A stretch of DNA of 64,000 nt from Candidatus Beckwithbacteria bacterium GW2011_GWC1_49_16 (lineage in GTDB: Bacteria > Patescibacteriota > Microgenomatia > UBA1400 > CG1-02-47-37), in the NCBI GenBank assembly GCA_001029675.1, contig CP011210.1, forward strand, positions 453,663-517,662. The letters are read 5' to 3'. The notes under the pieces are model-generated. The model saw nothing but the letters and a program-made list of their open reading frames with translations. It searched no databases and was not told the origin of the DNA. Position numbers and translations under genes: made by a program. Positions 21,629 through 62,725 of this stretch are shown in pieces (positions within the stretch are counted from its first letter, which is position 1; every line of letters begins with the position of its first letter).

Positions 21629-21736
21629 GCAAACTTCAAGTATTTTATCAAATAATTGATGCTACCAGCAAATGGGAAATTTTACTTTTAAAACCTATCG
21701 GAATTCAAGACGATCGTTGCGGGCTGGGAGAGGTTA

Positions 21737-22000
21737 TTATGGTTTTCTTGGACCAAAAAGAACGAAGCTTGTGCCGTAGTTGGTTTTGTCATCTGGATCG
21801 CGAAGGCTAATCCAGCCGGCTTGGGCTTCCCGCCAAAATTCCGGATAACGCTCAATCCATTCTTGACGATCGAGTAGGGTGATTTTTTCTTCGTCAGGGG
21901 CGGTTAGCTCGGTAACGGTGCTTTTAAGTTGGGCAATGAAGCTTTTGGCAAAAGGAATGGCTAAAACGCCTGCCTCGCCTAACTTCCTTAATTGACCCAA
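21737..22000 (-). CDS. hypothetical small protein (cassette cargo)
   Basis: 87-aa ORF downstream of the ATPase gene inside the repeat-bounded cassette. No motif recognised. Confidence 0.35.
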   Translation of the reverse strand: MGQLRKLGEAGVLAIPFAKSFIAQLKSTVTELTAPDEEKITLLDRQEWIERYPEFWREAQAGWISLRDPDDKTNYGTSFVLFGPRKP

Positions 22001-22078
22001 AGTAAACTTTTTTGGATTGTCGAATATTTAGGTTGAGTCCTCTGGCTGTTTCATCCTTGTATGACAAACTAATTTCTT

Positions 22079-23413
22079 TCAATACACCTTCCATACTCTT
22101 TTAGAGCCCACAGAGATATCGAATTTCCCAACTGCCACTGGCTGGTCGAGCATAACTATATGTCTGACTTCAGGGTTATACCAATAGCTTTTGTTCAGAG
22201 TGCCGCTGTAAACAAAGTAAGCAATACCTAGCTGTTGGAACAGGCTTTCCGTCATGTAGCCCACCATGGCCGGGTTTTCTACCTCGTCAAAGTGAGCATG
22301 GGCGTGAATTAAGAAAGAGTTGTTTTTTTTACTAAAAACTGGAATACCTAATAAACCCTGTTGATAAGCATAGACAAAGTTATCCCCGGCCTTCTCGATG
22401 CCATAATATTCGTTGTCCAGGTAATTAACCCCGGTGCTAATAAAATTGTTTCTATCAGAATGCCAAATACTCACTTTTCTCATTTCCATCTCAAACATCT
22501 TAGACCTGTTTTCTGGAGTGTAGTAGGCGTACGGACCAATTACCCCAAGGACTCGTCTAAAGATGTAATCGGAGATGTTTGGGGCAAAGACGTCGATTTC
22601 TGCTGGTCCATCAGATTGAAGTATCTCGTCATAAATTTTATAACTTTCCGGCGCCACAAATACAGGATCCTCGTGCACTACTCCTTTGTTTTTTAATCGT
22701 TCTTGCTCGAGCACAGCGCCAGAGAGGTAATCGCCAAATTTCTTCCCTCTAATACTGTAAAATACATCCCGAAGTTGTTCGACCTTATCTAAAACATCTT
22801 GAGGAATCAGTTCGTATGACAAATATTTGAAAGGTTTGGTTTCTCTTCCTAGGTTATTTTTTAGGTATCTGCCGGCGATAAAAACAACCATATCTTCGGT
22901 TACCCCTGACCAACTAAGCATTGTGGCCAGGGTGGGAATTCCAAGCGAGTACCGATGGACCGTATCTCGTGATAAAGACGACTCGCCTTCTAGGTATGCC
23001 CTGTCTAAAAATTGGTCCATTTCTGTCTCAGTCATCCCTTTTAAGGTACGATGATGGATTTTAAATTTCTCCTGTCGAGCTAGTTTTTTTAAATTTTTAT
23101 CATAAACAGAGTCGTTTTGAAAACTTAGCGGCCTTCCTGTAAAGATAGCCCTTGTGTGATTTGAAAGTTCTTTAATTGCGTCTTGATTGTAATAGGTTAT
23201 ATCGTCCTCGGAGAAAAAGTAGACCTCAGACTGGTGGGTTATTTGTTGTAAGTGGTTGACTAGAGTAGTTTTGCCAATCCCTCTAAAGCCCTCAATAATC
23301 ACCAGTTGTTTGTTGTCTGTGGGGGAATTTTGGAAAATATCAAGCACGGCTACTGCCAATTCCTTTTGGCTAGTTGTCAGCTCGATCGGTGATTGATGAA
23401 GCAGGTCTTTCAT
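22079..23413 (-). CDS. P-loop ATPase (AAA / Arch-ATPase-like) with an uncharacterised C-terminal domain
   Basis: 444 aa. It has a Walker A (IIEGFRGIGKTTLVNHL) and a Walker-B-like hydrophobic-strand-D segment. Cassette cargo. Confidence 0.6.
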   Translation of the reverse strand: MKDLLHQSPIELTTSQKELAVAVLDIFQNSPTDNKQLVIIEGFRGIGKTTLVNHLQQITHQSEVYFFSEDDITYYNQDAIKELSNHTRAIFTGRPLSFQNDSVYDKNLKKLARQEKFKIHHRTLKGMTETEMDQFLDRAYLEGESSLSRDTVHRYSLGIPTLATMLSWSGVTEDMVVFIAGRYLKNNLGRETKPFKYLSYELIPQDVLDKVEQLRDVFYSIRGKKFGDYLSGAVLEQERLKNKGVVHEDPVFVAPESYKIYDEILQSDGPAEIDVFAPNISDYIFRRVLGVIGPYAYYTPENRSKMFEMEMRKVSIWHSDRNNFISTGVNYLDNEYYGIEKAGDNFVYAYQQGLLGIPVFSKKNNSFLIHAHAHFDEVENPAMVGYMTESLFQQLGIAYFVYSGTLNKSYWYNPEVRHIVMLDQPVAVGKFDISVGSKRVWKVY

Positions 23414-23523
23414 TAGACGTATTATAGGTCATTTAATAGGGAAAGCAATCCTTACAGGGATAAACCTTGAAGGTTATGAAGGTTAAGCAGATGGGAAATT
23501 ATAGTTTTAAAACCTATCAGAAT

Positions 23524-23964
23524 TTAAGACGATCGTTGAGAAACGGGAGAGGTTTTGGCGGCAGTTTTTGGTTTGGCTGCTTTGGGGGTAGCTTTGGCTT
23601 TGGGGGTAGGTTTAACGACGGCTTTGGTTTTAACGCGGGTGGCGTGGCGGCCGATGCGGGAGCGTAAGTAATTCAGCTTGGCGCGCTTGGGGTGGCCTTT
23701 TTTGACTACTTTGATCTTGGTGATGGATGGGGAAGCCAAGGGCCAGATTTTTTCCACACCGACAGCGTCGGCGGCGATTTTGCGGACGGTGAAGGTTTTA
23801 CCCATTCCCCTGCCCTTAATTCCCATGACTATGCCTTCGAAGGCCTGGGACTGGGTTTTGCCTGCCTCGCCTTTGGCCGGGTCGGCTTCGGTGAACTGGT
23901 GGGTGACTTTGATGGTGTCACCGACGCGAAAGCTGGTTTGATTGAATTTGGCGTAGAGTGCCAT
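23524..23964 (-). CDS. rplS: 50S ribosomal protein L19 with a Lys/Ala/Pro-rich C-terminal extension
   Basis: 146 aa. The core (FRVGDTIKVTHQFTEADPAKGEAGKTQSQAFEGIVMGIKGRGMGKTFTVRKIAADAVGVEKIWPLASPSITKIKVVKKGHPKRAKLNYLR) is L19-like. The tail is KPTPKAKATPKAAKPKTAAKTSPVSQRSS. Confidence 0.85.
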   Translation of the reverse strand: MALYAKFNQTSFRVGDTIKVTHQFTEADPAKGEAGKTQSQAFEGIVMGIKGRGMGKTFTVRKIAADAVGVEKIWPLASPSITKIKVVKKGHPKRAKLNYLRSRIGRHATRVKTKAVVKPTPKAKATPKAAKPKTAAKTSPVSQRSS

Positions 23965-23978
23965 ACCGAGGGATTATA

Positions 23979-25697
23979 CTATTTCACTCCCGAGGAGTCC
24001 ATGCGGCTTGCCTCGCCGGCAGGCGGGCCACCTCGGGAGTGGTAGGCAGAGGCGGCTTTCAAGTATTCGATAAAAATCGGGTGGGGAAATAAGGGGCGGG
24101 ACTTGTATTCGGGGTGGCCCTGGGTGCCTAAGAAAAAAGGGTGGACCTTACGGGGCAGTTCGATAATCTCGACCAAATCCTCTTTAAGCGCGCGGGCGGA
24201 AATGACCAGGCCGGCTTTTCTCAACCGATTTAAATAGTCGCGGTTGAATTCATAGCGGTGGCGGTGGCGTTCTTCGGTCAGGCCGCGCCTTTTATTGATA
24301 AAGCCGCGGTGGCGGTTGTAAATCTGCCAGGCTAAAGTTTTAGGACTGACTAGAGCCCGCCAACTGCCCAGCCTCATCGTGCCGCCGTAGGCACGGGCTT
24401 TAAGGTTTCTCAATTGGGCCGGAATGATGTGGATCACCGGGTGGGCCGTTTTTGGTTTGATTTCAGTCGAATGGGCGCCTTTGAGCTGGGCGACGTTTTG
24501 AGCAAACTCGACTACACTAAGCTGCATGCCGAAGCACAGGCCCAAGTAGGGAATTTTTTCTTCCCGGGCGTATCGAATTGCCTGGATCATGCCGGACACA
24601 CCCCTTGGCCCCCAACCGATGGGGACGATGATGCCGTCGACTCCGGCAAGCAACTTTTTGACGTTAAAACGATTTAATTTTTGCGAGTTGATTTCTCTGA
24701 TTTTCAAGTCGACCCGGGAATTGGCGGCGGCGTGCCTTAAGGCTTCGACCAAGGAACGGTAAGAGTCGGTCAGGTGGTAGTCACCGGTGGAAAAATATTT
24801 GCCGACGATGGCGATTTCGGCCGAGTGGATTTTTTTCTGGTTGGTTTTTTTGATAAAGTCGTGCCAATCTTTAAGTTGAGGCTTTTTGGGTTTTAAACCC
24901 AGTTTGGCTCTTAATCTTTGGGTGAGATTTTGAGAGTCGAAAATTAAGGGCAGCTCGTAGATGTTGGCAACATCCGGCGAGGAGATGATGTCTTCGGCTT
25001 CGAGGTTGCAAAACAGGGCAAAACGCTCGCGCCGACGCTTATCAATGATCCGGTCGGCCCGGGCGACAATAAAATCGGGCTGGATGCCCATGGAGTTTAA
25101 CTGCTTGACTGACAGCTGGGTGGGTTTGGTTTTGGGTTCCCCCAGGTGCGGCGGGGTGGGCAGGTATGACACGTGGACGTGGACGACGGTGTCGTGGTGT
25201 TTTAATTTCATTATCCGGGAGGCCTCGTAGTAGAGGATGTTTTGGTACTCACCGGCGGTGCCGCCAAGCTCGACCACCACCACGTCGGCTTGGTCTTTTT
25301 TGCCCACGGCTTTGATTTTTCTGATGATCTCGTCGGTGACGTGGGGAATGGCTTCGACGTCCTCGCCGCCGTAGTCAAAATTCCTTTCCCGGTCGATAAC
25401 GGTTTTGTAGATTTGGCCCAAGGTGATGAAGTTATCGATGGAGAGGTTGGTGTTTAAAAACATCTCGTAGGTGCCGATGTCCATGTCGGTTTCGGCGCCG
25501 TCGGCGCACAAAAACGGGTCGCCGTGCTCGATGGGGTTAATTAAGCCGGCGTCGAAGTTTAAATAGTTTTCGCACTTGACCGGGACAACTTTAAGGCCGG
25601 TGGACTTTAAAAGCAGGGAGATGGCGCCGGTAATCAAGCCTTTACCCAGTCCGGATAAAACTCCACCAGAAACGAAGATGTAGCGCGTTTGCGGCAT
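23979..25697 (-). CDS. pyrG: CTP synthase
   Basis: 572 aa. The N-terminus reads MPQTRYIFVSGGVLSGLGKG, and the C-terminal half is a glutamine amidotransferase domain (GLCFGMQL). Confidence 0.9.
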   Translation of the reverse strand: MPQTRYIFVSGGVLSGLGKGLITGAISLLLKSTGLKVVPVKCENYLNFDAGLINPIEHGDPFLCADGAETDMDIGTYEMFLNTNLSIDNFITLGQIYKTVIDRERNFDYGGEDVEAIPHVTDEIIRKIKAVGKKDQADVVVVELGGTAGEYQNILYYEASRIMKLKHHDTVVHVHVSYLPTPPHLGEPKTKPTQLSVKQLNSMGIQPDFIVARADRIIDKRRRERFALFCNLEAEDIISSPDVANIYELPLIFDSQNLTQRLRAKLGLKPKKPQLKDWHDFIKKTNQKKIHSAEIAIVGKYFSTGDYHLTDSYRSLVEALRHAAANSRVDLKIREINSQKLNRFNVKKLLAGVDGIIVPIGWGPRGVSGMIQAIRYAREEKIPYLGLCFGMQLSVVEFAQNVAQLKGAHSTEIKPKTAHPVIHIIPAQLRNLKARAYGGTMRLGSWRALVSPKTLAWQIYNRHRGFINKRRGLTEERHRHRYEFNRDYLNRLRKAGLVISARALKEDLVEIIELPRKVHPFFLGTQGHPEYKSRPLFPHPIFIEYLKAASAYHSRGGPPAGEASRMDSSGVK

Positions 25698-25714
25698 AAA
25701 GTATTATACCCGAT

Positions 25715-29167: not shown

Positions 29168-29208
29168 TTGAATTATCTTACCACACCTTCAGGATCTGAT
29201 CCCGTAGG

Positions 29209-32234: not shown

Positions 32235-32337
32235 GAGCTAGTTTAGCAAAGTTTGGCTCAACCAACCAGCTCTCCTAGGTTTAGGAGTTTTGTTGCTGAT
32301 TGAGTTGAGAAAGATACATTGGGGGTAAGTTATCAAT

Positions 32338-34920: not shown

Positions 34921-34943
34921 GGGCAGTAAACCTATTTTACCCT

Positions 34944-38335: not shown

Positions 38336-38372
38336 CCACTGCCCATAATTTCTGTCCAGAAAGGAGGAGACT

Positions 38373-41821: not shown

Positions 41822-43054
41822 CTAGTTAGGGATAAAATCAAAAACTTCTAATATCGAGGTTGGTTCTAAGCGGTAAGGAGTTTGTTTCCCCTCATAAAAT
41901 CCGTATCTTTGAATCATATCCGGAAGTAAACAGGAACATTTCAAGGAAACACCTGTGTCTAAATTAGTGATGGTCATGTCTGACGCTGTTCCGGTTTCGT
42001 CCTCAAAAGGAGAAAATTGCATTCCTCTGAAAGTGTCCATTTCAACTCTAAATTTCCTCCCGCCTAAACTAAACTGGGTGCCAAATCCTTTAAAATAGTG
42101 TTCTCTAGCGTAAAAAAGAGGAGCAGCCAAATCCTGGTGGGTTAATTTTTGCGATAATACAAAGTCGTTGTCCGACGCCATTATATACAACAGTGATTCA
42201 TTCTCCCCAAGGAAGCCAGCCATAGAATCTCGCATTGGGCGCATTCTAGATTCAAGCTTTTCAACTGGCTGCCCGTTAATTTCCGTAAGCTCCTTTATTA
42301 GTTCCGTCTCATTCCTTCCACCTATCTTGAACCCGCTCTGTTCAGCAACAATTTCTAATGGTCGTATGTCAAGCTCTTCGGGCTCAACGTTGCGCAAAAG
42401 TTTTTGACTGCCCTCGACCAAACTGCCACCATATATGAGATTAATTTTAAACTCCATGGTGCTGTTTCTGACGGTTAGAACTGTGCTTGCTCCACCCCAT
42501 TCGTAAGGTTCTTCTGTGCAATCAATTATTTGAGTTTTATCATCGAGCATTGCCTGTAGAGCGGGTCTTATCGGCTTGGTCATTCTTTCTACTTTCCCAC
42601 CTGATGTCCAGGCAATTACTTCTCCGCTTTCACCTTCATATTGAAGTTGGTATCTAAAAATATTGGGTTCAATGAGGTCAGATTCAAAACCTGTCTCTAA
42701 AAGTTGTTGTTCAATTGTCTTATCTTGAAACTTGGTAAAGTCAGGTTTTCTTTCTCCGCTGAAACCACCACCGCTGCCGTTAAGCGTTCTTTCCATTACA
42801 GTCAAGTCAGATGTAATTGTTATTAGGGAAAAACCTTCCTTAAAATATCCCTCGCCGACTTGTAACGCTAAAATTCTTTTCCAGTCTGTGTGAGAGTCAT
42901 AATCAACCATCAACGTCAATGTGCCATTGTCTTTAATGTCGACCACAGCTCCGCCATTTTCAAATATACTGGATTTCCCAAGGCGGTTAAAACCAACTTG
43001 ATTTAGTTCTTTCATCCTATCCGTTTGGGCCCGAGAAAGTTCTTGTTGATCCAT
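41822..43054 (-). CDS. hypothetical protein (AT-rich ORF next to the tRNA-like element)
   Basis: 410 aa with Gly-rich segments and no recognisable motif. It is visibly AT-richer than the flanking tkt and downstream genes. Confidence 0.5.
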   Translation of the reverse strand: MDQQELSRAQTDRMKELNQVGFNRLGKSSIFENGGAVVDIKDNGTLTLMVDYDSHTDWKRILALQVGEGYFKEGFSLITITSDLTVMERTLNGSGGGFSGERKPDFTKFQDKTIEQQLLETGFESDLIEPNIFRYQLQYEGESGEVIAWTSGGKVERMTKPIRPALQAMLDDKTQIIDCTEEPYEWGGASTVLTVRNSTMEFKINLIYGGSLVEGSQKLLRNVEPEELDIRPLEIVAEQSGFKIGGRNETELIKELTEINGQPVEKLESRMRPMRDSMAGFLGENESLLYIMASDNDFVLSQKLTHQDLAAPLFYAREHYFKGFGTQFSLGGRKFRVEMDTFRGMQFSPFEDETGTASDMTITNLDTGVSLKCSCLLPDMIQRYGFYEGKQTPYRLEPTSILEVFDFIPN

Positions 43055-43891: not shown

Positions 43892-44716
43892 TTAAGTTTC
43901 GGTTAAACCTCGATACATAATTCCAGAGTTTTTTCTTAGGGTTGCGATTCTTTGCAGGTATCGTTTCGGGTCTTCTTTAATGAAACCCTGATTGACCAAC
44001 CAATTTACTTTTTCAAGAGATGGTAACTCTTTTGGTTTAAACCACTCCTTTAGGTCTTCGATGACTGCAGTTTGTAGACTGGGGTTTTGGGTTAGAATTA
44101 AGTCTTTCCTAACCGATAACGGATCGAAATGTTTTTTCTTAAAGTCGTGCATTGTTGATTTCGTTTTACTAAAAGACTCTCGGAAATTGTCAGCTAATTG
44201 AAATAAAAAGGCGTTGGCGTTTTTCGGACTTTCAAATATACCTGGCGGAGTATTTTTAACGACGCTTTCTGAAGCCTCTGGGTCTATCGTTGTTTGGCCG
44301 TTTTCTAGGGCCTGAACCGTTAAGGATTTTAATCCGGACTCTGTCAATTGTTCTGTCTGACTAAGAATATTTAATACATAGGGAAAAACGTAGGGAACAA
44401 AAAGATGTGATGCAGAAATTAACTCCAGTTCAGGTCTTAAATAGGACAATTTTTGTGTTTCAGCTATTTGCCCAAAAACGCTGTTAATCAATATTGAAGG
44501 CGAGGTTGTTTTTGGGACCTGAATCGACTCGACCCTAAATGCTTGCCTAGTGTCGGGACTTGATATCCCCAAGGCTAAGGAGTACAAAATAAGTTTCCCC
44601 AAGACTTGGTCGCTGGCTTGTTTTTTCTTTTCCCAGTCACTCAAGTCGCCAAGGTCAAAGCGAAATTCTTCTAGATACTTTATGGCGTTGTCTATCTGGA
44701 GAAATTCTTTTGTCAT
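43892..44716 (-). CDS. hypothetical protein
   Basis: 274-aa ORF with no motif. It may head or join the downstream envelope cluster. Confidence 0.4.
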   Translation of the reverse strand: MTKEFLQIDNAIKYLEEFRFDLGDLSDWEKKKQASDQVLGKLILYSLALGISSPDTRQAFRVESIQVPKTTSPSILINSVFGQIAETQKLSYLRPELELISASHLFVPYVFPYVLNILSQTEQLTESGLKSLTVQALENGQTTIDPEASESVVKNTPPGIFESPKNANAFLFQLADNFRESFSKTKSTMHDFKKKHFDPLSVRKDLILTQNPSLQTAVIEDLKEWFKPKELPSLEKVNWLVNQGFIKEDPKRYLQRIATLRKNSGIMYRGLTET

Positions 44717-53173: not shown

Positions 53174-53176
53174 AGC

Positions 53177-54064: not shown

Positions 54065-54727
54065 CTAATATGGCTCTGCTTTGGCCGTCGGTTTGGCCTG
54101 GTTAACTTTATACGTCTCTTTGACAAAAAAGTCCACCCCGTCGCATTGAATCCTGGCGTAGGCGCCGTTGTCAACGGCGTAGGCCGGCAGCTGGTCGTAG
54201 CCGGCAAAGCCCAAACGGATGAGAAGCACCCGCAAAACGCCGCCATGGGTGACCAGCAAGACGTTTTTGCCCTGGTAGGCGACGGCGGTTTGGCGCAAAA
54301 ACCTGATAACCCGGTCCATCAGTTCCTGGTCGCTTTCGACTTCGGGGTTAGTTCTGAAAGTAAATCTGTCTTCGTCAGACATTTTTTGGTATTTTTTGAT
54401 CAGACGGGCAAATTTCTTTTGATAATCCTCGTAAACTTGGCCTTCATAGCGGCCAAAGGTTCTCTCCCTTAGAGCCTCGGTGGTCTCTACCGCCAGCTTT
54501 TTCTCGGCGGCTATAATCTCGGCGGTGCGCCGGGCCCGCAACAAGTCGGAGGAGAAAACGGCGGCAAAGTTGATGTCTTTGAGTTTTTTGGCGGTGTCTT
54601 TGGCCTGGTTGATGCCGGTCTGGGTCAAGGGAGAATCAGTGTGGCCCATGATGGTGTGGGTAATGTTCCACTCGGTCTCGCCGTGGCGAACCAGATACAG
54701 GGTGCAGAAGTTTTTGCCTGAAACCAT
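54065..54727 (-). CDS. histidine phosphatase (phosphoglycerate mutase) family protein
   Basis: 220 aa with the LYLVRHGETEWN (RHGE) catalytic motif. Confidence 0.75.
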   Translation of the reverse strand: MVSGKNFCTLYLVRHGETEWNITHTIMGHTDSPLTQTGINQAKDTAKKLKDINFAAVFSSDLLRARRTAEIIAAEKKLAVETTEALRERTFGRYEGQVYEDYQKKFARLIKKYQKMSDEDRFTFRTNPEVESDQELMDRVIRFLRQTAVAYQGKNVLLVTHGGVLRVLLIRLGFAGYDQLPAYAVDNGAYARIQCDGVDFFVKETYKVNQAKPTAKAEPY

Positions 54728-54733
54728 TAAAGT

Positions 54734-55606
54734 TTATGGTAGCACAAAGTGGCAAAGTAAATCTTCTTTTCTAACCCAAACGGTTTTAGGCTGATAGCCT
54801 TTCAAATGAAGGTTTTTTACTATCGAAGCCGTGTTAGTATTAAAGTGATTGAGATAGTCAGGTGAATGTATCTCGACAAAAATGTGGTCTGGCCTAATAC
54901 TGCCTAATCCGTCAATCACTTTTTCTTCGGCTCCTTCAACGTCGATTTTTATAATATTTGGCGCAGGCCAGCCATCGGCAACGAGACTATCTATTCTTCT
55001 GGTGGTAACTTTTTGAGTACCTTTAAATCTATGAACGTCTTCTAGGCTAGGACACTGACCAGAGGAATTGTCGACATGTAATATTTCCTCGCCGTCATGA
55101 TCGCTGATGGCTATCTGTAAACAATCTATTTGAGAAGAGACTTTATTGCTTATGACGTTGTCAGTTAGTTTTTGGAAAGTAGGAAGATTGGGCTCAAAAG
55201 CAACGATCTTACTCGTAGGTTCTTTTTTAGCAGAGACAATGGAGTAGCTGCCAATATAAGCTCCTATGTCCCACAATGCAGAACCCGGTTGTACCGCTTC
55301 AAGAAGCCTGGCCATGTATTTTTCCTCGTGGCCGGAGCCTTTTCTAATTAAAAACTCCTGAATCGAGGAAGCTACTGAATTAACCAGGGATTTTTCTCCA
55401 TTTCTCCCTAGATAGACCAGTGGAAAAATTCCATATCTTAGCTGAAAAAGTCGTTTTCTTAATGTAAAAGGAAGAAATTGACGATAAACTCTTCTTAAAA
55501 GCTGATCAGACTGGATTTCTTGATCTGGAATGTCAAGTACTAATATTTGAGGAACTGTTTCTAAATCAAGAATAGGCCCGATGGATATAAATTTGCTTCT
55601 TTCCAT
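54734..55606 (-). CDS. FkbM-family methyltransferase
   Basis: 290 aa with the WDIGAYIGSYSIV SAM-binding motif. The gene is AT-rich. Confidence 0.6.
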   Translation of the reverse strand: MERSKFISIGPILDLETVPQILVLDIPDQEIQSDQLLRRVYRQFLPFTLRKRLFQLRYGIFPLVYLGRNGEKSLVNSVASSIQEFLIRKGSGHEEKYMARLLEAVQPGSALWDIGAYIGSYSIVSAKKEPTSKIVAFEPNLPTFQKLTDNVISNKVSSQIDCLQIAISDHDGEEILHVDNSSGQCPSLEDVHRFKGTQKVTTRRIDSLVADGWPAPNIIKIDVEGAEEKVIDGLGSIRPDHIFVEIHSPDYLNHFNTNTASIVKNLHLKGYQPKTVWVRKEDLLCHFVLP

Positions 55607-55652
55607 GCGGGTATTATAGCAAATCTAGTCTTATAGTGTTATTTCTAGAGAC

Positions 55653-56660
55653 TTAAGATTTCCAAAGCCTAAGGTAATCATCAACCACTTTGTCCCAAGT
55701 TTGCCCTTGGGCAAAACGATAAGCAGCCTCGATCATTTTGTCGATTTTTCTGGGTTTATTCCTGGCGCTTTCAAACTGGCTCACCAGCTGGCTGGCCGAG
55801 CCGGCAATAAAGATGAATTTAGCTCCGGGGAAAAGAGTCAGGTAGTCTTTTTTCAAGGGATTTTGGTAGAGGGCGAAAACCGGGCGGCGGCGGGCCATGG
55901 CCTCAAGGATGGTCAGATAAGACGAGGCAAAGATATAAGCGGGCCGGTTTAAAAACTTACCAATATCTTTGACCAGGCCGGTAACCTGGCCTAATTTCTC
56001 GGCCTGACCGCGAAGGCTGCCGTCGCCGACAAAAGTGATTTTTAAATTGTACCGGGCTTTGATTTGTTTTAAAGCCTTCAAATATTCACTTACTGCCAAG
56101 TCGGGTTCAAGCCTGCCGATAAAAATAACCTCCCTTAAGCCCCTTCCCCCAATAAAGTTCTGATGTATCGATACATCGATACCGCCGTAGGTGACCGCGC
56201 CAGCTTTGGTGCCATAGTGATTGATAAGATAATCGCCGACGCAGATGTTGCCGGAAGATAAACTCTCCCAGATTTTTCTGGCCAGTTTGTTTTTGGCCGG
56301 CACCGGAAACTTACCCTCCCAACCGTGGAAGGTGGTAAAGACCGGTTTTTTGGGATACAGAAAACTAAAGGGCAAGTACCAAAAGAAAACGTCGTGGCAG
56401 TGGACCAAGTCGGCTTTTTGGATTAGACTCCGCCGGCGCCAAAGATTTAACCATATCCCCCATTTTGAGTTTGAATAGGGGAGTCTGACGATTTTTATGC
56501 CCCGGTGGCTGGCAATTTCGGCCAGTCCCCTTTTATGTTTCAAGGTGACTACGGTTATTTGGTGGCCTTTTTCCGCCAACCTGGCGCTCACCTCCTCTAC
56601 GTGCTTCTCCACCCCGCCGATGTGGGGGTAGAAAAGCCTGGTGAGCATGAGTATGGTCAT
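55653..56660 (-). CDS. family 4 (GT-B) glycosyltransferase
   Basis: 335 aa. The N-terminus reads MLTRLFYPHIGGVEKHVEEVSARLAEKGHQITVVT. Confidence 0.7.
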   Translation of the reverse strand: MTILMLTRLFYPHIGGVEKHVEEVSARLAEKGHQITVVTLKHKRGLAEIASHRGIKIVRLPYSNSKWGIWLNLWRRRSLIQKADLVHCHDVFFWYLPFSFLYPKKPVFTTFHGWEGKFPVPAKNKLARKIWESLSSGNICVGDYLINHYGTKAGAVTYGGIDVSIHQNFIGGRGLREVIFIGRLEPDLAVSEYLKALKQIKARYNLKITFVGDGSLRGQAEKLGQVTGLVKDIGKFLNRPAYIFASSYLTILEAMARRRPVFALYQNPLKKDYLTLFPGAKFIFIAGSASQLVSQFESARNKPRKIDKMIEAAYRFAQGQTWDKVVDDYLRLWKS

Positions 56661-57427
56661 TTATCCGGTTTTACCCCAACTAAAATTATCTGGGATTCCC
56701 CAAAGATCTTTAGAGTTATCCAATCCAGAAAGCTTACCAAATAAGTAAGTGGGCCTCTAATAAATTTGATAAAAAATCCAAGCCTTTGAGAGAGAAATAA
56801 CAAATTTCTCAAAATTCCTTCTGTTTTCTTTATCTCTTTGGTTTTAAACCCGCATCTAGTCGTCAGTTCCTTTAAAGACCTCTCTGTATATCTTCTTAAA
56901 TGTCCAACTCGTCTATCAAAGTCTTTAGCATATCCTATTCGATAAAGAGGCGCATTGTATGAGGGGACTGTTATAATAATCTTTCCTCCTTTTTTAATTA
57001 ACTTATGTATTTTAAAAAGGATTACTTCTTCGTTTTTCAAGTGCTCGAGTATTTCAGAGCAAATTACTAAATCGAATTTCTTATTTACCTTTAAACCTCT
57101 ATTAAAGTCCCCCCTGATAAATCTAGTCTTATTTCTTAAATTAAATGACCTTGCAGACTTCTCGGAAATATCTACTGCCTTTTTCGAAATTTCTATTCCG
57201 ACGACGTTAAACCCTTTCTTTGCTAGGTAAAGAGAAATAGCGCCCGTCCCACTGCCTATGTCTAAGACTGTTCTTCCTTTAATTTTTTTAAAGCCTTCTT
57301 TAAACAGTTCGTTATCAAATGTTCTTAAGAGATTAAGGTAAGTAAAGTTGTTCCTGCCAATAATTCTTCTTGGTATTGTAGAATTTTTATGAAATTTGTC
57401 ATATAAACTAACGTTGTCTCTTCTCAT
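56657..57427 (-). CDS. class I SAM-dependent methyltransferase
   Basis: 256 aa with motif I VLDIGSGTGAISLYLAKKG. The gene is AT-rich. Confidence 0.75.
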   Translation of the reverse strand: MRRDNVSLYDKFHKNSTIPRRIIGRNNFTYLNLLRTFDNELFKEGFKKIKGRTVLDIGSGTGAISLYLAKKGFNVVGIEISKKAVDISEKSARSFNLRNKTRFIRGDFNRGLKVNKKFDLVICSEILEHLKNEEVILFKIHKLIKKGGKIIITVPSYNAPLYRIGYAKDFDRRVGHLRRYTERSLKELTTRCGFKTKEIKKTEGILRNLLFLSQRLGFFIKFIRGPLTYLVSFLDWITLKIFGESQIILVGVKPDK

Positions 57428-57477
57428 AGTTTAGTTTATCACGACATAGTAGGTCCTTGACAAATAATTCTTTTTAG

Positions 57478-60081
57478 GTGTACCTTCAAGGAGCAATGTT
57501 TCTTCGTCTGCCCAGGGTATTGGTGTTTTTCTTAGGTTTTCTTTTTGTCCTCTTAATATTTCCAAATAAAAGCAGCGCTGCAGTTTTATTTCAGGATAAT
57601 TTTGATGACGGAAATGCCAATGGGTGGATAGTTGCAAGAAACATGCAATGGGGAAATAACTTATTGCCATGCTATAAAGAAGGTCAACCGACAGACTGGG
57701 CTGTTCAGGACGGAAAATATGGGATTTATATAGTCGGACAGAGTTGTGTTACTGAAACAATGCCAGCAAGCTGGGATAATTCGTGGAACAACTACATTTT
57801 TGAAGCTGACGTTATTTTCGTCAGAGGAACTGATGGGAATATCGCTTTCAGATATTCGGGAAGTCCTAATTTCGATTGGTATGGCTACCATTTTCAAATC
57901 GACTCAAATCCAAGCTTTTCAAAAGTTACTCTTCAAAGAGTCTTAAACACAAGCATTTATTCAGATAACTCAGTTTTCTATCTGGAACGCAACACCCCTT
58001 ATCACCTAAAAATTATTGTTAACAATGAAGAGATAAAACTATTTATAAATGATAATTTGGCTCTAGATTACCCAGATGCTGGAGGCAGATTCACCACAGG
58101 CAGAATCGCATTACAAGCCAGCGTTGGAGGTGATCCAGAATCACAAGTCTGGTTTGACAATGTTGTGGTCAGCTCAATCGGTGACGAGCCAGAGGAAAAA
58201 GATCCGGTTGTGTTGCTGCCAGGGTTTGGAGCAAGCTGGGACAAGACGGCCCTGGTGATAGGAGGTCCTGGCGATGACTGGACTAAAACTCCGTTCGTCA
58301 ACGTCTACGACAACTTGAGAAATACTTTTATCGACAACGCCGGCTATACCGAAGGCGATGATTACTTTGAGTTTTACTACGACTGGCGCAAGCCGTTGAC
58401 CGATTTAGCCGATGACTTTGATGACTTTCTTCAAACAACGGTGCTCACGGATAAGCCGGAAGACACTAAAGTCGACCTAGTCGGTCACAGCCTTGGAGGA
58501 ATGGTGGCCAGAGTCTTTGCCCAAGAACATGGCATAGATAAACTAGACGAGATCGTCACCACTGGTTCACCCCATGAGGGAGCCATTCCAGCCTGGCTGG
58601 CTTGGTCGGGAGCGGAGGTGGGCGAACGCTGGTCGTGGCAGTGGTTAGCGCTGCAGCTTTATCTTCAAATCCACAACTTGGGTTACGCCTCACCAGTGAC
58701 TGCGGTGCGGGGTTTGACTCCGGGGCTTAAAGATTTGCTGCCTATTTTTGACTTTGCCAAAGACGAGGGCGACTCGGTAATTCCTTATACCAGTTTGACC
58801 GGCATCAATGACTATTTGGACAGCCTTGAATCAAGCCTATCCACAGAAGTTAAAGGTGTCTTAAACACCATTGCCGGCCGTGAAGACGACCCTGATCGGA
58901 ATACGGTTGAATGGTTGACTCTGGGAGAGAGAAGCTGGATCGACCAACTTTTGGGTAGGTGGCCTGACGGCAAACCGGTGGCCAAAGAAACCACAGACGC
59001 TGGTGACTTAACTGTGTTGCAAAAAAGCGCCACAGTCAGCGGCGTTGCCTCGACGGCCGTGGTCAATACCACTCACGTTAGTTTGCCGCAAACAAAGGAA
59101 GGCATCCAAGCAATTCTTGATGCTTTAGACTTATCGGGGGTAGCTCCGGCAACTGGCGTCGATCCTCTGCCGCGAAACCCATCCTTGGTTTTCTTTCTCC
59201 ACTCGCCAGCCGAATTGACCGTAACTGCGCCCGACGAATCTCAAGCTGGCTTCGGCGTCGCCTCGCCGATGGCCAACTCCCTTTACAGCCCGGAAGACAA
59301 ACTTTTGGTTATTTACAACGCCTTGGCCGGAATTTATGGAGTGGAAATTTTGGGAACCGGCACCGGTCCATACCACTTGGAAGTCGGCCAGTTGACCGAA
59401 GCGGGTGAATTTTTCAACACCTTAAGCGAAACTACTTCTGCCGGAGAAACCGACACTTTTCAACTTGACTTTAACCCCGAAGACCCTTTGGCTCAACCGG
59501 TCGTCGATGAAACCGGAAAAACCCAACTACTCTTGGCCAAAGCCAGGCTGGAAGAACTCAAAGACGCCGTTAACCGGCGCTGGTTTAAAAACTTTATCGA
59601 CCAAATGATTCGCTTAATTGACCGGGCCGTGGAGAAAATCGATCAGGGCAGATTCCTCTGGGCCCAAGTCTATGTGCAGAGAACCTTGCTGACCGACTAC
59701 TATCTGCGCTTGTTTTCAGACAGACACTGGAGTTTTTGGGGGCTTACTTCCCAAGAGCAAATCTTGGCTCATAATTTGGCCGCAGAGGCGGGTCAATACT
59801 TGGAAGAGGCTTTTGTGATTACTTTTGACTTAAGCGGTCGCAGGTTAACTTCCCGGCAAGTGCAAAGTTATATCAGAGAGACGGAGAGGTTAAAGGCCCG
59901 GGTCGACCGCCGACTGGAAAGCTACGGTCAAGAGAATCAACTTTTGGGTGAAACCTACGAGCTGGCAGAGGCCAGTCTTGCCGGAGCCAAGGCTGATTTT
60001 GACTCGGGGAACTTAAGTAGCGCTTACGCCCAGCTTTTGGCCGCCAAAATTCTCTATCAGGAAGCCTTAGGCCTGCTGTAG
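57478..60081 (+). CDS. secreted protein with an N-terminal concanavalin/LamG-like lectin domain and an alpha/beta-hydrolase (lipase/PGAP1-like) domain
   Basis: 867 aa. It has a signal peptide and a jelly-roll-like domain (FQDNFDDGNANGWIV...RIALQASVGGDPESQVWFDNVVVS). A nucleophile elbow, GHSLGGMVAR, follows. Confidence 0.6.
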   Translation: MYLQGAMFLRLPRVLVFFLGFLFVLLIFPNKSSAAVLFQDNFDDGNANGWIVARNMQWGNNLLPCYKEGQPTDWAVQDGKYGIYIVGQSCVTETMPASWDNSWNNYIFEADVIFVRGTDGNIAFRYSGSPNFDWYGYHFQIDSNPSFSKVTLQRVLNTSIYSDNSVFYLERNTPYHLKIIVNNEEIKLFINDNLALDYPDAGGRFTTGRIALQASVGGDPESQVWFDNVVVSSIGDEPEEKDPVVLLPGFGASWDKTALVIGGPGDDWTKTPFVNVYDNLRNTFIDNAGYTEGDDYFEFYYDWRKPLTDLADDFDDFLQTTVLTDKPEDTKVDLVGHSLGGMVARVFAQEHGIDKLDEIVTTGSPHEGAIPAWLAWSGAEVGERWSWQWLALQLYLQIHNLGYASPVTAVRGLTPGLKDLLPIFDFAKDEGDSVIPYTSLTGINDYLDSLESSLSTEVKGVLNTIAGREDDPDRNTVEWLTLGERSWIDQLLGRWPDGKPVAKETTDAGDLTVLQKSATVSGVASTAVVNTTHVSLPQTKEGIQAILDALDLSGVAPATGVDPLPRNPSLVFFLHSPAELTVTAPDESQAGFGVASPMANSLYSPEDKLLVIYNALAGIYGVEILGTGTGPYHLEVGQLTEAGEFFNTLSETTSAGETDTFQLDFNPEDPLAQPVVDETGKTQLLLAKARLEELKDAVNRRWFKNFIDQMIRLIDRAVEKIDQGRFLWAQVYVQRTLLTDYYLRLFSDRHWSFWGLTSQEQILAHNLAAEAGQYLEEAFVITFDLSGRRLTSRQVQSYIRETERLKARVDRRLESYGQENQLLGETYELAEASLAGAKADFDSGNLSSAYAQLLAAKILYQEALGLL

Positions 60082-60629
60082 TTGGCACCAGGAAAGGTGC
60101 CGGCAAATCTACTTATCTCTATGCCTGTATCGTCGAAAACATCGACCATGTATCTTTTATTGCCCAGCTCAACCGTAGAAATTAATTCCTTAGGTGCCAA
60201 AGGTTGAAGCCCAAACTTTTCAATGATCTCCTCTAAGGTTCTGATTTCAGTTGAGGGTAATTGAGAAAACTCTAACGTATATGAAGGCTCTCCCCTTTCA
60301 AACACCAAAACTCCTTTATGTAAGGTTATGGGCGCCAGCACGGGAATTGATAAATTAGTTAATTGACTTAAAGCCATTAAAGTTTCGTAGGCTCTCTCGG
60401 CGTAACCTCGAGAGTTTTCGTTTTCCGCAGGGTAAAGTTTCATAAATAGTCCAACTGAATCACTTGATGCCGACAACCTCAAAGTGAACTCATAGAGTCG
60501 GCTCTCCAGCTCCCAATCCCCTTTGGGAGAAAAGTCTATCGGAAACCCTTCGCCGTTAAACTCAAGCATTCCTAGGAAATTTTCCGCCTGGATGGTTGCG
60601 TATTCAACAGAAACTTTTTCTCTGTCCAT
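60057..60629 (-). CDS. hypothetical protein
   Basis: 190-aa ORF convergent with the lipase gene. No motif. Confidence 0.4.
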   Translation of the reverse strand: MDREKVSVEYATIQAENFLGMLEFNGEGFPIDFSPKGDWELESRLYEFTLRLSASSDSVGLFMKLYPAENENSRGYAERAYETLMALSQLTNLSIPVLAPITLHKGVLVFERGEPSYTLEFSQLPSTEIRTLEEIIEKFGLQPLAPKELISTVELGNKRYMVDVFDDTGIEISRFAGTFPGANYSRPKAS

Positions 60630-60651
60630 GTTCGGTATTATATCAGGTCAG

Positions 60652-62725
60652 TTTAAATTAGCCTCTTAATCGCTTCTAGGTAAACGTGTTTGTTTTTGCG
60701 GGCGGGGAAGTCCTGGGAGATTTGATTGCGTAGAGAAGTTTTTAGTCACTTTCTTAACTTTTCAAGGAGATCTCTTAAATAAACTTCTAGTAAAAATTCT
60801 GACTCTGGTATATATTTTTGCTCATACTCTTGAAAAACTCCGTAACTTTCAAGTAAATATAAATTTTCAATCGTTAATTGTATTTGTTTTATTAATTGGA
60901 TTCGTTGGTCCAATAAAATATCCTCTATTTGACGAAAGGGATTAAAGCCCAATGTTGGCTGGTCGCAAATTTTAAGAAGGAACTCAGAAACTTTTTGAAA
61001 ACTTTTTCCTACTTCTTCAAAGTCTGGAGTAGTGGTCAGCTCTTTACCCAAGGAGTCTAATTCTGAAAACCATCTAATTAAGTTGCTATTATCATAGGGT
61101 GGTGGTTTTTGGTTAATTTCTCTCAGAATTTCTACCCTACCTCTATTTTTCGTGTTAGTTATCTTAAATTCTTGATCCCAAATAGCAATATAGGTGCCTT
61201 TTTTTGCTGATATGGTCCCCAGAATATCTTGTGGGTTACCGTCGTATTCTTTAACAACCACACCCAGAAATAAAATGTCATTTCTTGACGTTAATGTGGT
61301 GAAATGGTCTCCTCCTCTGCCGCCGGTATGGTCAACTCTAGGCGCGAGAATCATTCCAGGTATTCGTTCGTCTCTGACATACTGCAACTCGACAATCGCA
61401 GCTGCATTACTAAAATGACCAATGCTAACTTTTCTTAGACCAAAAAACCCACTAAAAACCGTGTCTGGAAGGATCAAGAGATAATTTGAGTGTTGCTGAT
61501 TGAATTTGAGTAATATGTCCATATCGTCTAGGCTAAATCCGCCTGCACCTACTTGAATTATCCCCCGTCCTTTCCGCGAATCAATGTTAACAACATCTGT
61601 TCCTTCGAAAAGAACGGTTCCTTCTTGGGGTTCGAGTTCTAAATCTTTTACGGGGGTTCTATTTTCAGGCGAATGCTGAACAACGATGCCTGGACTTTCT
61701 GATTGATCAATAGCAAACTCCCAGTAAGATGAGGTTTTGTCTGTTAATGTTTTTTGCCAGGCCCTGATAAGCTCTACTAGTTTAGGAACTTGAGGGTATA
61801 TTGATTTTTCAATTTCGAAACTTCGTCTAATAGTAATAGTTTCTAATTGGGTCGTATTTAGATTAACCACGTCAACTTTTGTTATCGACTGAAGAGCTTT
61901 AAAGATTGTTTTTATATCAGAAATTTTTTCTTTTTTTAAAACAATTGCCTCGCTTGTCTCTACTGCTTTAGTTCCAAGACCTATTACTAGACGTAGGATG
62001 GGCTCGTCATTAACTAAAGTTAGGACTCCAGATAAAGACGGCATAAAGTAATCCCCAAACCTATCCCCGACTACCGGATGAATTAGCATTCCCATTCCGG
62101 AATTTGTCCGCTCTAAATTAACAACTTTATCAGATGAAAAAAAGCTAGCAAAAATGCTTTTCTGATTCTCCTCCAGAACAGCTAAATCTTCCTGAGTGTC
62201 TCCTGTCTTGATATAAAACGTAGTGTAATATATTCCCGTTCCACCTCTTTCGTCTGTGGCGGAAGACCTTATAGCTATAGGAATTCCTTTGGGTATAAAA
62301 GACAAAATTTCTTGGTTTATTTCTGATAAATGTGGAGGAATTTCCCCTTGTTCAATTTCAAAATCTTGAGTTGAATTACGAAAATCGTTATACTGAATGA
62401 ACTCGTGAAAAAGTGACGACCCGATGCTAATCCCAGGTAGAACAGAAATCCCACTTAGATTTTGTTCATCCAAATTAATTAAATCTCTGGTTTTCAGGCC
62501 TGGATTGGAACCATAGCTAATCCACTCCTTACCGAATTGAGATTCAGTTGGCTTTTGGTTTTCTGACATACGGTCTTATAACTATTAATATAAGACCGTA
62601 TTTTATCATACGGGTGCTGAGCCTACTGGTTTAAGCACTAAGATGAGAACAAGCCTGACTTAAACTAACTTCTTAATCGCTTCCAAGTAAACGTGTTTGT
62701 TTTTGCGGGCGGGGAAGTCCTGGGG
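60652..62725. mobile_element. cargo cassette inserted at the 3' end of the uridine-kinase-like gene, bounded by ~65-bp imperfect direct repeats (60652-60717 and 62659-62725)
   Basis: The repeat is tt[a/c]aa[t/c]ta[g/a]c[c/t]TCTTAATCGCTTC[T/C]A[G/A]GTAAACGTGTTTGTTTTTGCGGGCGGGGAAGTCCTGGG. The relic copy still encodes ...ARKNKHVYLEAIKRLI-stop, against ...ARKNKHVYLEAIKKLV-stop in the live gene. The cargo is a single 607-aa gene and there is no recombinase. Confidence 0.55.
60746..62569 (-). CDS. hypothetical protein with a PPDK_N/PEP-synthase-like nucleotide-binding motif (cassette cargo)
   Basis: 607 aa. IPIAIRSSATDERGGTGIYYTTFYI resembles the V(A/R)VRSSATAED motif of PEP synthase and pyruvate phosphate dikinase ATP-grasp N-domains. 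The C-terminal 350 aa is unrecognised and the gene is AT-rich. Confidence 0.45.
   Translation of the reverse strand: MSENQKPTESQFGKEWISYGSNPGLKTRDLINLDEQNLSGISVLPGISIGSSLFHEFIQYNDFRNSTQDFEIEQGEIPPHLSEINQEILSFIPKGIPIAIRSSATDERGGTGIYYTTFYIKTGDTQEDLAVLEENQKSIFASFFSSDKVVNLERTNSGMGMLIHPVVGDRFGDYFMPSLSGVLTLVNDEPILRLVIGLGTKAVETSEAIVLKKEKISDIKTIFKALQSITKVDVVNLNTTQLETITIRRSFEIEKSIYPQVPKLVELIRAWQKTLTDKTSSYWEFAIDQSESPGIVVQHSPENRTPVKDLELEPQEGTVLFEGTDVVNIDSRKGRGIIQVGAGGFSLDDMDILLKFNQQHSNYLLILPDTVFSGFFGLRKVSIGHFSNAAAIVELQYVRDERIPGMILAPRVDHTGGRGGDHFTTLTSRNDILFLGVVVKEYDGNPQDILGTISAKKGTYIAIWDQEFKITNTKNRGRVEILREINQKPPPYDNSNLIRWFSELDSLGKELTTTPDFEEVGKSFQKVSEFLLKICDQPTLGFNPFRQIEDILLDQRIQLIKQIQLTIENLYLLESYGVFQEYEQKYIPESEFLLEVYLRDLLEKLRK

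What the first reader, a model, noticed from the sequence alone, without database searches (positions are those of the whole stretch)
21670..62725. Recurrent insertion mode: gene-3'-end-targeting cassettes with ~65-bp target duplications and no cis recombinase
Two independent loci, rplS and udk, show the same signature: a 60-70 bp duplication of the terminal coding sequence, an AT-rich cargo of one or two genes, and retained coding of the displaced gene end. This pattern suggests a trans-acting, tyrosine-recombinase-like targeting of protein-gene 3' ends, as seen in tycheposon or integron-less cassette systems. A serine recombinase would not be expected to leave such long repeats. This may be a distinct family of mobilisable defence/cargo cassettes in this lineage.
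Basis: inference. Interest (0 to 1): 0.7.

Follow-up and report, generated by a model that had tools for sequence, protein, structure and literature searches.

The report
Recombinase-less gene cassettes at gene ends
In a Candidatus Beckwithbacteria (CPR) genome, two small foreign gene cassettes sit in the last bases of rplS and udk, each flanked by an imperfect 65-69 bp copy of the gene end; this is a real but fairly ordinary insertion scar, with no evidence of a new mobile-cassette system.

Summary
Two direct-repeat pairs exist: 21667-21735/23486-23554 (69 nt, 86%) and 60653-60717/62660-62724 (65 nt, 92%). Each brackets low-GC cargo at the 3' end of rplS or udk, and both copies keep an open frame and a stop codon.

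Relatives show the empty sites. Related Beckwithbacteria have rplS followed directly by tRNA-Lys and tRNA-Glu. A sister lineage has udk running directly into the convergent hydrolase gene.

- The udk locus holds two nested insertions. The 190-aa one has only a 3-nt repeat.
- The two cassettes share no sequence or common ends.
- The 607-aa gene's homologues sit at other sites without repeats, including rplS/tRNA-Lys in another Beckwithbacteria.
- 22 other Microgenomates loci with inserts after rplS show no such repeat.
- Both cassettes are fixed in every conspecific contig seen.
- No tyrosine recombinase is in the window.
- A mobile large serine recombinase island starts 386 bp from the rplS-distal repeat, but cannot explain the repeats.
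- The cargo has no convincing defence assignment.

Substitution patterns indicate the repeat copies are two alleles, not a decayed local duplication. Best reading: single-crossover insertion of DNA carrying its own gene-end copy, leaving CIME-like relics. The enzyme is unresolved.

The parts
23524..23964 (-). rplS (ribosomal protein L19, 146 aa), the target gene of locus 1
   Evidence: ORF. PF01245.
23486..23554 (-). Repeat D2, gene-proximal copy: the last 31 nt of rplS including the stop, plus 38 nt downstream. Carries a promoter-like TTAAAT-18-TATAAT.
22079..23413 (-). Cargo 1: a 444-aa P-loop NTPase, nearly an orphan (3 proteins found among 5.8 billion), GC 0.415.
21737..22094 (-). Cargo 1, second ORF: a gene of about 117 aa split by a frameshift in an A6 run into 56-aa and 87-aa ORFs. 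No family match.
21667..21735 (-). Repeat D2, distal copy: the displaced rplS end (TSPSPQRSS*) plus 38 nt, lying 38 nt upstream of tRNA-Lys. Contains a promoter-like TTGAAT-18-TAAAAT.
21455..21628 (-). tRNA-Lys(UUU) and tRNA-Glu(UUC), the ancestral neighbours of rplS.
19925..21280 (+). Large serine recombinase at the end of the neighbouring 19-kb low-GC island (about 2039-21400). It lies outside the repeats and is not part of the cassettes.
62660..63511 (-). udk (uridine kinase family, 283 aa), the target gene of locus 2.
62660..62724 (-). Repeat D3, gene-proximal copy: the last 65 nt of udk including the stop (…KKLV*).
60746..62569 (-). Cargo A: a 607-aa protein with an ATP-grasp ATP-binding domain of the rifampin phosphotransferase / PEP synthase type, GC 0.372. 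Preceded by a 13-bp perfect hairpin at 62568-62601.
60653..60717 (-). Repeat D3, distal copy: the displaced udk end (…KRLI*). The 38 nt on the gene-proximal side are identical to the other copy. Five transitions fall in the last 27 nt.
60082..60658 (-). Cassette B: an older insertion carrying the 190-aa ORF (ORF 60057-60629, GC 0.435). It is bounded only by a 3-nt CTA repeat and is absent from sister lineage L098.
60067..60081 (-). Remnant of the ancestral udk terminus (CTA CAG CAG GCC TAA = LQQA*). It overlaps the stop codon of the convergent hydrolase gene, as in L098.
57478..60081 (+). Convergent alpha/beta-hydrolase gene, the ancestral neighbour of udk.

Best explanation
Each locus records the insertion of a small, low-GC 'promoter plus gene' cassette into the last bases of a housekeeping gene. 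The insertion was made by one reciprocal crossover between the chromosome and an incoming, probably circular, DNA that carried its own allelic copy of that gene end.

The incoming copy is now fused to the gene, so rplS and udk stay intact. The resident copy was pushed to the far side of the cargo. This gives imperfect 65-69 bp direct repeats that are equivalent to attL and attR.

No recombinase is encoded between the repeats. I take the most likely enzyme to be a site-specific integrase that acted in trans or was later deleted. On that reading the cassettes are recombinase-less relics of integrative elements (CIME-like), now fixed and probably immobile.

Shown: the insertion itself, its polarity, gene-end restoration, the allelic nature of the two copies, and the absence of a recombinase inside. 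Inferred: the circular intermediate and the identity of the enzyme.
For: Repeats and anatomy:
- The repeats are real, with sharp gene-proximal boundaries.

Empty sites in relatives:
- Twelve related Beckwithbacteria-type loci with tRNA-Lys within 100 nt of the rplS stop (L011, L012, L013, L014, L016, L017, L019, L029, L114, L117, L133, L187) have rplS followed by tRNA-Lys within 1-99 nt. In the window, the displaced stop is 76 nt from tRNA-Lys.
- Sister lineage L098 has udk overlapping the hydrolase gene, with neither the 607-aa nor the 190-aa gene.

Foreign origin:
- Cargo GC is 0.37-0.42 against a core of 0.52-0.55.

The two udk copies are alleles, not a decayed duplicate:
- They differ by 5 transitions that give 3 synonymous and 2 conservative changes, with the stop kept. 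In simulation this has p of about 0.004 for random substitutions and 0.03-0.05 for transitions only.
- All five differences cluster in the distal 27 of 65 nt (p of about 0.012).

No other mobility machinery inside:
- No recombinase or transposase lies between the repeats.
- No terminal inverted repeats were found.

Precedent:
- Integration into the 3' ends of ribosomal-protein and metabolic genes, leaving att repeats and recombinase-less derivatives of 1.2-13 kb, is established for tyrosine-integrase elements (PMC7563491, read).
Against: - No tyrosine recombinase was found in the 64-kb window.
- The two cassettes share no sequence, arms or core motif, so one trans-acting integrase serving both is unsupported.
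- No integrase-bearing element with either repeat was found in about 190 related loci or in IMG/VR.
- The incoming udk allele is closer to the resident allele than the sister lineage is. This points to a conspecific donor rather than a long-evolved attP.
- Insertions at the very same sites occur without long repeats.
- The cassettes are fixed in every conspecific contig seen.
- The cassettes hold almost no non-coding DNA and no integrase pseudogene. That is unusually clean for two independent decays.
Confidence: 0.4

Rival explanations
1. The topology is the same, but no dedicated recombinase was involved. DNA from a conspecific strain, carrying that strain's gene end with cargo already next to it, was taken up. 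Host recombination then inserted it, either as a RecA-dependent single crossover of a circular fragment or as an unequal or illegitimate exchange between sister alleles. The repeats are simply donor and recipient alleles of the gene end.
For: - The two udk copies are each other's closest relatives. They share derived KHVY and xTTTAA states against sister lineage L098.
- A 38-nt block of perfect identity in D3 would suffice for homologous pairing.
- udk cluster members P0154 and P0155 are mosaics of L098-like and window-like segments, so homologous recombination occurs inside udk.
- L098 is 99.8% identical to the window a few kb away but only 84-91% identical at udk and the hydrolase gene.
- There is no shared cassette backbone.
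- Other insertions at the same sites have at most 3 nt of repeat.
- No integrase was found.
Against: - D2 has no identical run longer than 14 nt, which is too short for RecA-type pairing unless the copies diverged afterwards.
- Simple single-strand homology-facilitated illegitimate recombination usually gives replacement or deletion rather than duplication (my own knowledge, not tested here).
- It needs a circular or sister-chromosome intermediate whose origin is unexplained.
- Two independent events gave nearly equal repeat lengths (65 and 69 nt) and spacings (2007 and 1819 nt).
Confidence: 0.3
2. Local duplication. The cargo arrived by a process that duplicated 65-69 bp of target (a very long target-site duplication, or a tandem duplication). 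The copies then diverged in place.
For: - The copies are each other's closest relatives.
- The structures are old enough to be fixed in the species.
- The relative distances of the two udk copies to L098 are similar: 9 versus 10 differences, by hand count on the alignment.
Against: - The displaced, non-functional udk copy shows only synonymous or conservative transitions and keeps its stop (p of about 0.004 to 0.05).
- The differences are clustered (p of about 0.012).
- The rplS copies differ by a 6-nt block replacement plus a TAA to TGA change that keeps the stop, which looks allelic.
- There are no terminal inverted repeats and no transposase.
- Known transposition duplications are at most about 15 bp (my own knowledge).
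Confidence: 0.08
3. The neighbouring large serine recombinase (19925-21280) inserted the rplS cassette.
For: - It lies 386 bp from the distal D2 copy.
- It belongs to a clearly mobile island. L158, a distant Microgenomates genome, has a 93.5% identical recombinase at the same tRNA-Glu flank.
Against: - It is outside the repeats and separated from them by two tRNA genes.
- Similarity between L158 and the window starts exactly at tRNA-Glu (window 21527) and does not reach the cassette.
- Serine recombinases exchange at a 2-bp core and leave no long repeats (established knowledge).
- The udk locus has no serine recombinase anywhere in the window.
Confidence: 0.03

Closest known systems
CIMEs (cis-mobilizable elements) and other recombinase-less, att-flanked relics of ICEs/IMEs in Streptococcus (PMC7563491)
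   Same: - Small size: CIMEs are 1.2-13 kb, and these cassettes are 1.8-2.0 kb.
- Cargo-only content.
- Flanked by direct repeats, one of which is the 3' end of a housekeeping gene (rpsI, rpmG, rplL and fda there; rplS and udk here).
- The target gene is kept intact.
- Can sit in tandem at one gene end.
   Different: - No parent ICE/IME or integrase with the same att has been found.
- The repeats are longer and more diverged (86-92%).
- The cassettes are a single gene with its own promoter and almost no spare DNA.
- The host is a CPR bacterium with no known conjugation apparatus.
- The second cassette at udk has no long repeat.
Tycheposons and their degenerate remnants in Prochlorococcus islands (bioRxiv 10.1101/2020.12.28.424599)
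   Same: - Streamlined genome.
- Cargo islets stacked at a fixed site and separated by partial copies of the target.
- Remnants lacking integrase are described there.
   Different: - Tycheposons are defined by a tyrosine recombinase and by tRNA targets with partial-tRNA repeats.
- Here the targets are protein-gene ends, there are no partial tRNAs, and there is no recombinase.
SCC / pseudo-SCC elements at the 3' end of rlmH (serine recombinase CcrAB; my own knowledge)
   Same: - Target is the 3' end of a protein gene.
- Recombinase-less cassettes flanked by direct repeats can be mobilised in trans.
- Tandem arrays occur.
   Different: - SCC repeats are about 15-18 bp.
- SCC cassettes share conserved ends recognised by one recombinase.
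- Here the repeats are 65-69 bp, are copies of the gene end, and are unrelated between the two loci.
Insertion-duplication by single-crossover (Campbell-type) homologous integration, and homology-facilitated illegitimate recombination during natural transformation (my own knowledge)
   Same: - Produces a direct duplication of exactly the homologous segment carried by the incoming DNA.
- Needs no element-encoded enzyme.
- The donor is a close relative.
   Different: - This is mostly a laboratory or transformation phenomenon.
- Natural 65-bp, 86-92% identical substrates are poor for RecA.
- It has not been documented in CPR bacteria.

Membership tests
CIME-like recombinase-less att-flanked element | [quoted passage not shown] | tested here: met
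CIME-like recombinase-less att-flanked element | No integrase, relaxase or conjugation genes inside | tested here: met
   Pfam and PADLOC on all cassette ORFs.
CIME-like recombinase-less att-flanked element | The repeats are att sites of an identifiable integrase-bearing parent element (ICE/IME/GI) using the same target | tested here: inconclusive
   No such element was found in the window, in about 190 related loci, or in IMG/VR. The whole genome and its close relatives could not be scanned. The collection scans returned nothing above 70% pyrG identity.
CIME-like recombinase-less att-flanked element | Excision or mobilisation through recombination between the flanking repeats | not testable with these tools
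   This needs reads or experiments. No presence/absence polymorphism was seen within the species.
Tycheposon | Encodes a tyrosine (or large serine) recombinase at the element end | tested here: not met
Tycheposon | Integrates in a tRNA gene and is flanked by a partial tRNA copy | tested here: not met
   The repeats are rplS and udk ends. ARAGORN and Rfam find only five complete tRNAs.
Integron gene cassette | Promoterless ORF ending in an attC imperfect inverted repeat, in an array next to intI/attI | tested here: not met
   No IntI or tyrosine recombinase in the window. The boundaries are direct copies of the target gene end. No shared terminal structure exists between the cassettes. Promoter-like sites precede the cargo.
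Large-serine-recombinase island / SCC-like cassette | Boundaries made by a serine recombinase: short core, no long repeat, recombinase at the element end | tested here: not met
   The serine recombinase lies outside the repeats. Its island's similarity to L158 ends at tRNA-Glu. The repeats are 65-69 bp. There is none at udk.
Transposon / insertion sequence | Transposase, terminal inverted repeats, short target-site duplication | tested here: not met

The most novel reading that the evidence does not exclude
Beckwithbacteria, and perhaps other CPR bacteria, may build their flexible genome with compact 'gene end + promoter + one gene' circles. These would integrate at the extreme 3' ends of housekeeping genes without carrying a recombinase. 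The enzyme would be either an unlinked, flexible-specificity integrase or the host's DNA-uptake and recombination machinery. That would make them a recombinase-free, self-restoring cassette system, distinct from integrons and tycheposons.
Probability: 0.12. Interest if true: 0.65.

Novelty: new member of a known kind. Interest (0 to 1): 0.3.

Why it matters
CPR bacteria have tiny genomes and few recognisable mobile elements, so how they gain accessory genes is poorly documented. These two loci give clean insertion scars that comparison with relatives confirms. They show gene gain at the very ends of essential genes without loss of those genes. They also mark the rplS / tRNA-Lys / tRNA-Glu junction as a hot spot that holds a genuinely mobile serine-recombinase defence island. 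If a trans-acting integrase or a transformation-driven insertion route were demonstrated, that would explain part of CPR genome flexibility. As it stands, this is a modest, descriptive case.

Tried and rejected
- **More gene-end duplications in the window.** Searched by the repeat finder and self-BLAST. None was found, and the other low-GC single genes (41822-43054, 43892-44716, 54734-55606, 56657-57427) have no flanking repeats.
- **rplS-end duplications elsewhere.** Searched about 160 pyrG-rplS loci of other Microgenomates, including 22 with inserts between rplS and the next tRNA. None was found.
- **Strain-level empty sites.** Looked through exact-protein look-ups of rplS, udk, the 190-aa protein, pyrG variants and an atpB variant. 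All conspecific contigs carry both cassettes.
- **Close relatives in the collections.** The genome and metagenome scans with pyrG returned nothing above 70% identity. The sister lineage's rplS locus therefore could not be fetched.
- **Cargo or repeats on phages or plasmids.** No relatives were found.
- **Shared ends between the two cassettes.** None was found. There are no terminal inverted repeats.
- **Defence annotation of the cargo.** PADLOC gives only weak P-loop matches.
- **Structure of the 444-aa protein.** The model is too poor to search with (pLDDT 59).
- **Rfam.** Only tRNAs were found.
- **L113.** Its tail diverges from the window inside cassette 1, and I judged this a low-coverage chimera.
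Full report
**Observation.** The window comes from a Candidatus Beckwithbacteria (Microgenomates, CPR) genome. Its proteins match records named Beckwithbacteria GW2011_GWB1_47_15, and they also occur on a 1,049,888-bp contig. Two direct-repeat pairs stand out from everything else in the 64 kb:
- 21667-21735 / 23486-23554 (69 nt, 86%)
- 60653-60717 / 62660-62724 (65 nt, 92%)

Self-BLAST E-values are 2e-15 and 1e-19. No other pair of this kind exists in the window. Core genes have GC 0.52-0.55. The genes between the repeats have GC 0.415 and 0.372.

**Locus 1** (minus strand). The order is:
- rplS (23964 to 23524)
- the proximal repeat, made of the last 31 nt of rplS plus 38 nt downstream
- 72 nt containing a promoter-like site
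- a 444-aa P-loop NTPase gene (23413 to 22079)
- an overlapping gene of about 117 aa, broken by a frameshift in an A6 run (22094 to 21737)
- one base
- the distal repeat, which still reads TSPSPQRSS* against the working TSPVSQRSS*
- 38 nt
- tRNA-Lys and then tRNA-Glu

Both repeat copies contain a promoter-like hexamer pair just after the stop codon (not above chance). If real, the duplication would leave both the cargo and the tRNAs with a promoter.

**Locus 2** (minus strand). The order is:
- udk (63511 to 62660), whose last 65 nt are the proximal repeat
- 90 nt with a perfect 13-bp hairpin
- a 607-aa gene (62569 to 60746)
- 28 nt
- the distal repeat, reading QDFPARKNKHVYLEAIKRLI* against ...KKLV*
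- 23 nt
- a 190-aa ORF (60629 to 60057), which overlaps the end of a convergent hydrolase gene (57478-60081)

**These are insertions.** For locus 1, twelve related Beckwithbacteria-type loci in which tRNA-Lys lies within 100 nt of the rplS stop carry pyrG-rplS followed by tRNA-Lys within 1-99 nt and, where the contig continues, tRNA-Glu (pyrG 62-70% identical). These are L011, L012, L013, L014, L016, L017, L019, L029, L114, L117, L133 and L187. In the window the displaced stop codon lies 76 nt from tRNA-Lys. So the distal copy plus the tRNAs reproduce the ancestral arrangement.

For locus 2, a sister lineage provides the empty site. L098-L101 (udk 92% identical in protein) has udk ending ...KKLQQA* and overlapping the hydrolase gene by 15 nt. 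It has neither the 607-aa nor the 190-aa gene. The window still holds that ancestral terminus, CTA CAG CAG GCC TAA, at 60081 to 60067. It lies at the 3' end of the 190-aa ORF, with CTA being the reverse of the hydrolase stop codon.

Locus 2 therefore contains two nested events. The older is cassette B (about 60082-60658, the 190-aa gene), bounded only by a 3-nt CTA repeat. The younger is cassette A (the 607-aa gene), bounded by the 65-nt repeat. Both repeat copies share the xTTTAA end created by event B. They also share KHVY where L098 has KLIY. So they are closer to each other than to the sister lineage.

**Population.** Every conspecific contig retrieved carries both cassettes with identical repeats. 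These contigs come from several samples and MAGs. I found no presence/absence polymorphism and no variant neighbourhood.

**Cargo.**
- The 444-aa protein has only a weak P-loop / AAA / STAND-like signal. It has two homologues among 5.8 billion proteins. Its model is poor.
- The 607-aa protein belongs to a family of 18 proteins restricted to Beckwithbacteria-like genomes.
- Its model (pLDDT 80) matches the ATP-binding ATP-grasp domain of rifampin phosphotransferase and PEP synthase. It is probably a small-molecule phosphotransferase.
- Neither protein is a recognised defence protein. One homologue does sit beside a type I restriction-modification system and an AAA_15/21 ATPase.

**Is this a recurrent, family-like mode?** The evidence says no, or not yet:
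- The two cassettes share no sequence, ends or motifs, and neither has terminal inverted repeats.
- Homologues of the 607-aa gene lie at other places without repeats.
- In Beckwithbacteria RIFCSPLOWO2_02_FULL_47 (L091), and probably L116, the homologue sits exactly between rplS and tRNA-Lys. There are 41 nt and 21 nt of spacer and no duplication.
- Twenty-two other Microgenomates loci with 0.4-4.4 kb inserted between rplS and the next tRNA show no rplS-end copy.
- About 160 loci scanned by self-BLAST show nothing comparable.

The sites are hot spots, but the long repeat is peculiar to these two events.

**Recombinases.** No tyrosine recombinase is encoded in the window (precomputed Pfam). A large serine recombinase (19925-21280) lies 386 bp beyond the distal rplS repeat, on the far side of the two tRNAs. 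It closes a 19-kb low-GC island (about 2039-21400). That island carries a CBASS pair (CD-NTase plus Cap15), a type I restriction-modification system fused to AbiU2, a ParB-methylase and other genes.

The island is truly mobile. L158 has pyrG only 61% identical but a recombinase 93.5% identical, at the same tRNA-Glu flank. Nucleotide similarity starts exactly at tRNA-Glu. More distant serine recombinases occupy the same position in L053 and L068. This recombinase lies outside the repeats. It cannot generate 69-bp repeats, and it is absent from the udk locus.

**Mechanism.** The five differences between the udk copies are all transitions. They produce three synonymous and two conservative changes and keep the stop codon. 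In simulation this has p of about 0.004 for random substitutions and 0.03-0.05 for random transitions. All five fall in the distal 27 of 65 nt (p of about 0.012). The rplS copies differ by a 6-nt block (VS versus SP) and by TAA versus TGA, again keeping a stop.

This is what two working alleles of a gene end look like. It is not what a dead duplicate decaying in place looks like. A local duplication or very long target-site duplication is therefore unlikely.

The simplest topology that places two alleles as direct repeats around foreign DNA is a single reciprocal crossover with a circular molecule carrying one allele. That is the classical attP x attB scheme.

Two readings of the enzyme remain. 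On balance I favour site-specific integration with the recombinase supplied in trans or since lost (about 0.4). It explains circle formation, sharp boundaries, gene-end restoration and the low identity tolerated in D2. Precedent exists for ribosomal-protein and metabolic gene ends with recombinase-less derivatives (PMC7563491).

The close rival is host recombination between conspecific strains (about 0.3). It is favoured by these points:
- the conspecific origin of the incoming allele
- the 38-nt identity block in D3
- mosaic udk alleles
- the lack of any shared cassette backbone
- repeat-less insertions at the same sites
- the absence of any integrase

It is disfavoured by the 14-nt maximum identity run in D2 and by the need for a circular intermediate.

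**Comparison and verdict.** The structures work like CIMEs or other att-flanked relics. However, membership is unproven, because no parent element or integrase is known. They are not tycheposons: there is no recombinase and no tRNA target (for the definition). They are not integron cassettes, not serine-recombinase cassettes and not transposons.

The finding is real and neatly documented by comparison with relatives. It is a new example of a known kind of scar in an under-studied lineage, not a demonstrated new mobile system. Interest is 0.3. The most novel reading not excluded is a recombinase-free, self-restoring cassette system in CPR, with probability about 0.12.

Noticed in passing
window 2039-21400 (recombinase 19925-21280); L158:11850-15824; L053, L068, L025, L052: A 19-kb low-GC defence island sits on the 3' side of tRNA-Glu and ends in a large serine recombinase. 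It carries a CBASS CD-NTase plus Cap15, a type I restriction-modification system fused to AbiU2, a ParB-methylase, a LexA-like gene, and a pair made of a 139-aa HTH protein and a 514-aa protein. A distant Microgenomates contig (L158, pyrG 61%) has a 93.5% identical recombinase plus homologues of the 514-aa and 139-aa genes at the same tRNA-Glu flank. More distant serine recombinases occupy the same spot in other lineages. This looks like a recurrent serine-recombinase attachment site in Microgenomates.
   Followed up: partly
L110 and L112 (ends correspond to window 21454 and 21416): Two conspecific metagenome contigs stop at or just past the 3' end of tRNA-Glu. This suggests assembly breaks at the island edge, and possibly strain variation in the serine-recombinase island.
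   Followed up: no
window 60746-62569; L091:6001-7791; L093:6001-7866; L200:6001-7830: The 607-aa cargo belongs to an 18-member family confined to Beckwithbacteria-like genomes. It has a rifampin-phosphotransferase / PEP-synthase-type ATP-grasp domain and invariant histidines (H414, H422). It always occurs as a lone gene at different chromosomal sites, once beside a type I restriction-modification system and an AAA_15/21 ATPase. Most contigs holding the homologue P0004 (12 of its 13) are only 2-5 kb long.
   Followed up: partly
window 21737-22094 (minus strand): The 56-aa and 87-aa ORFs read as one gene of about 117 aa, interrupted by a frameshift in a run of six A. There is no family match. 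The same split is called in all conspecific contigs.
   Followed up: partly
P0154, P0155 versus P0143 and the window udk (62660-63511): Some udk alleles combine an L098-like N-terminus with the window-type C-terminus. L098 is 99.8% identical to the window at 56000-56660 but only 84-91% identical at udk and the hydrolase gene. This indicates frequent homologous exchange between sister lineages around this locus.
   Followed up: no
L028/L130:2455-2568 and 11750-11863; L062, L065, L085, L141: Several Microgenomates loci have a 50-114 nt sequence between pyrG and rplS that recurs 8-12 kb upstream at 82-95% identity. Its nature is unknown.
   Followed up: no
L113:8827-8939 (diverges at window 21809): One low-coverage contig departs from the window sequence inside the 87-aa ORF of cassette 1 and continues into unrelated coding sequence. 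It is probably a chimeric assembly, but a structural variant is not excluded.
   Followed up: partly
L095:1486-1519 and 1838-1871: Next to the only moderately close homologue of the 444-aa NTPase (P0020, 42-44% identical), a 34-nt direct repeat (91%) brackets most of a 139-aa ORF.
   Followed up: no
window 41822-43054, 43892-44716, 54734-55606, 56657-57427: These are further single low-GC genes (GC 0.33-0.41) embedded among core genes of GC 0.52-0.55. One lies next to tRNA-Thr. None has detectable flanking repeats. The two methyltransferase genes are also present in the sister lineage L098.
   Followed up: partly
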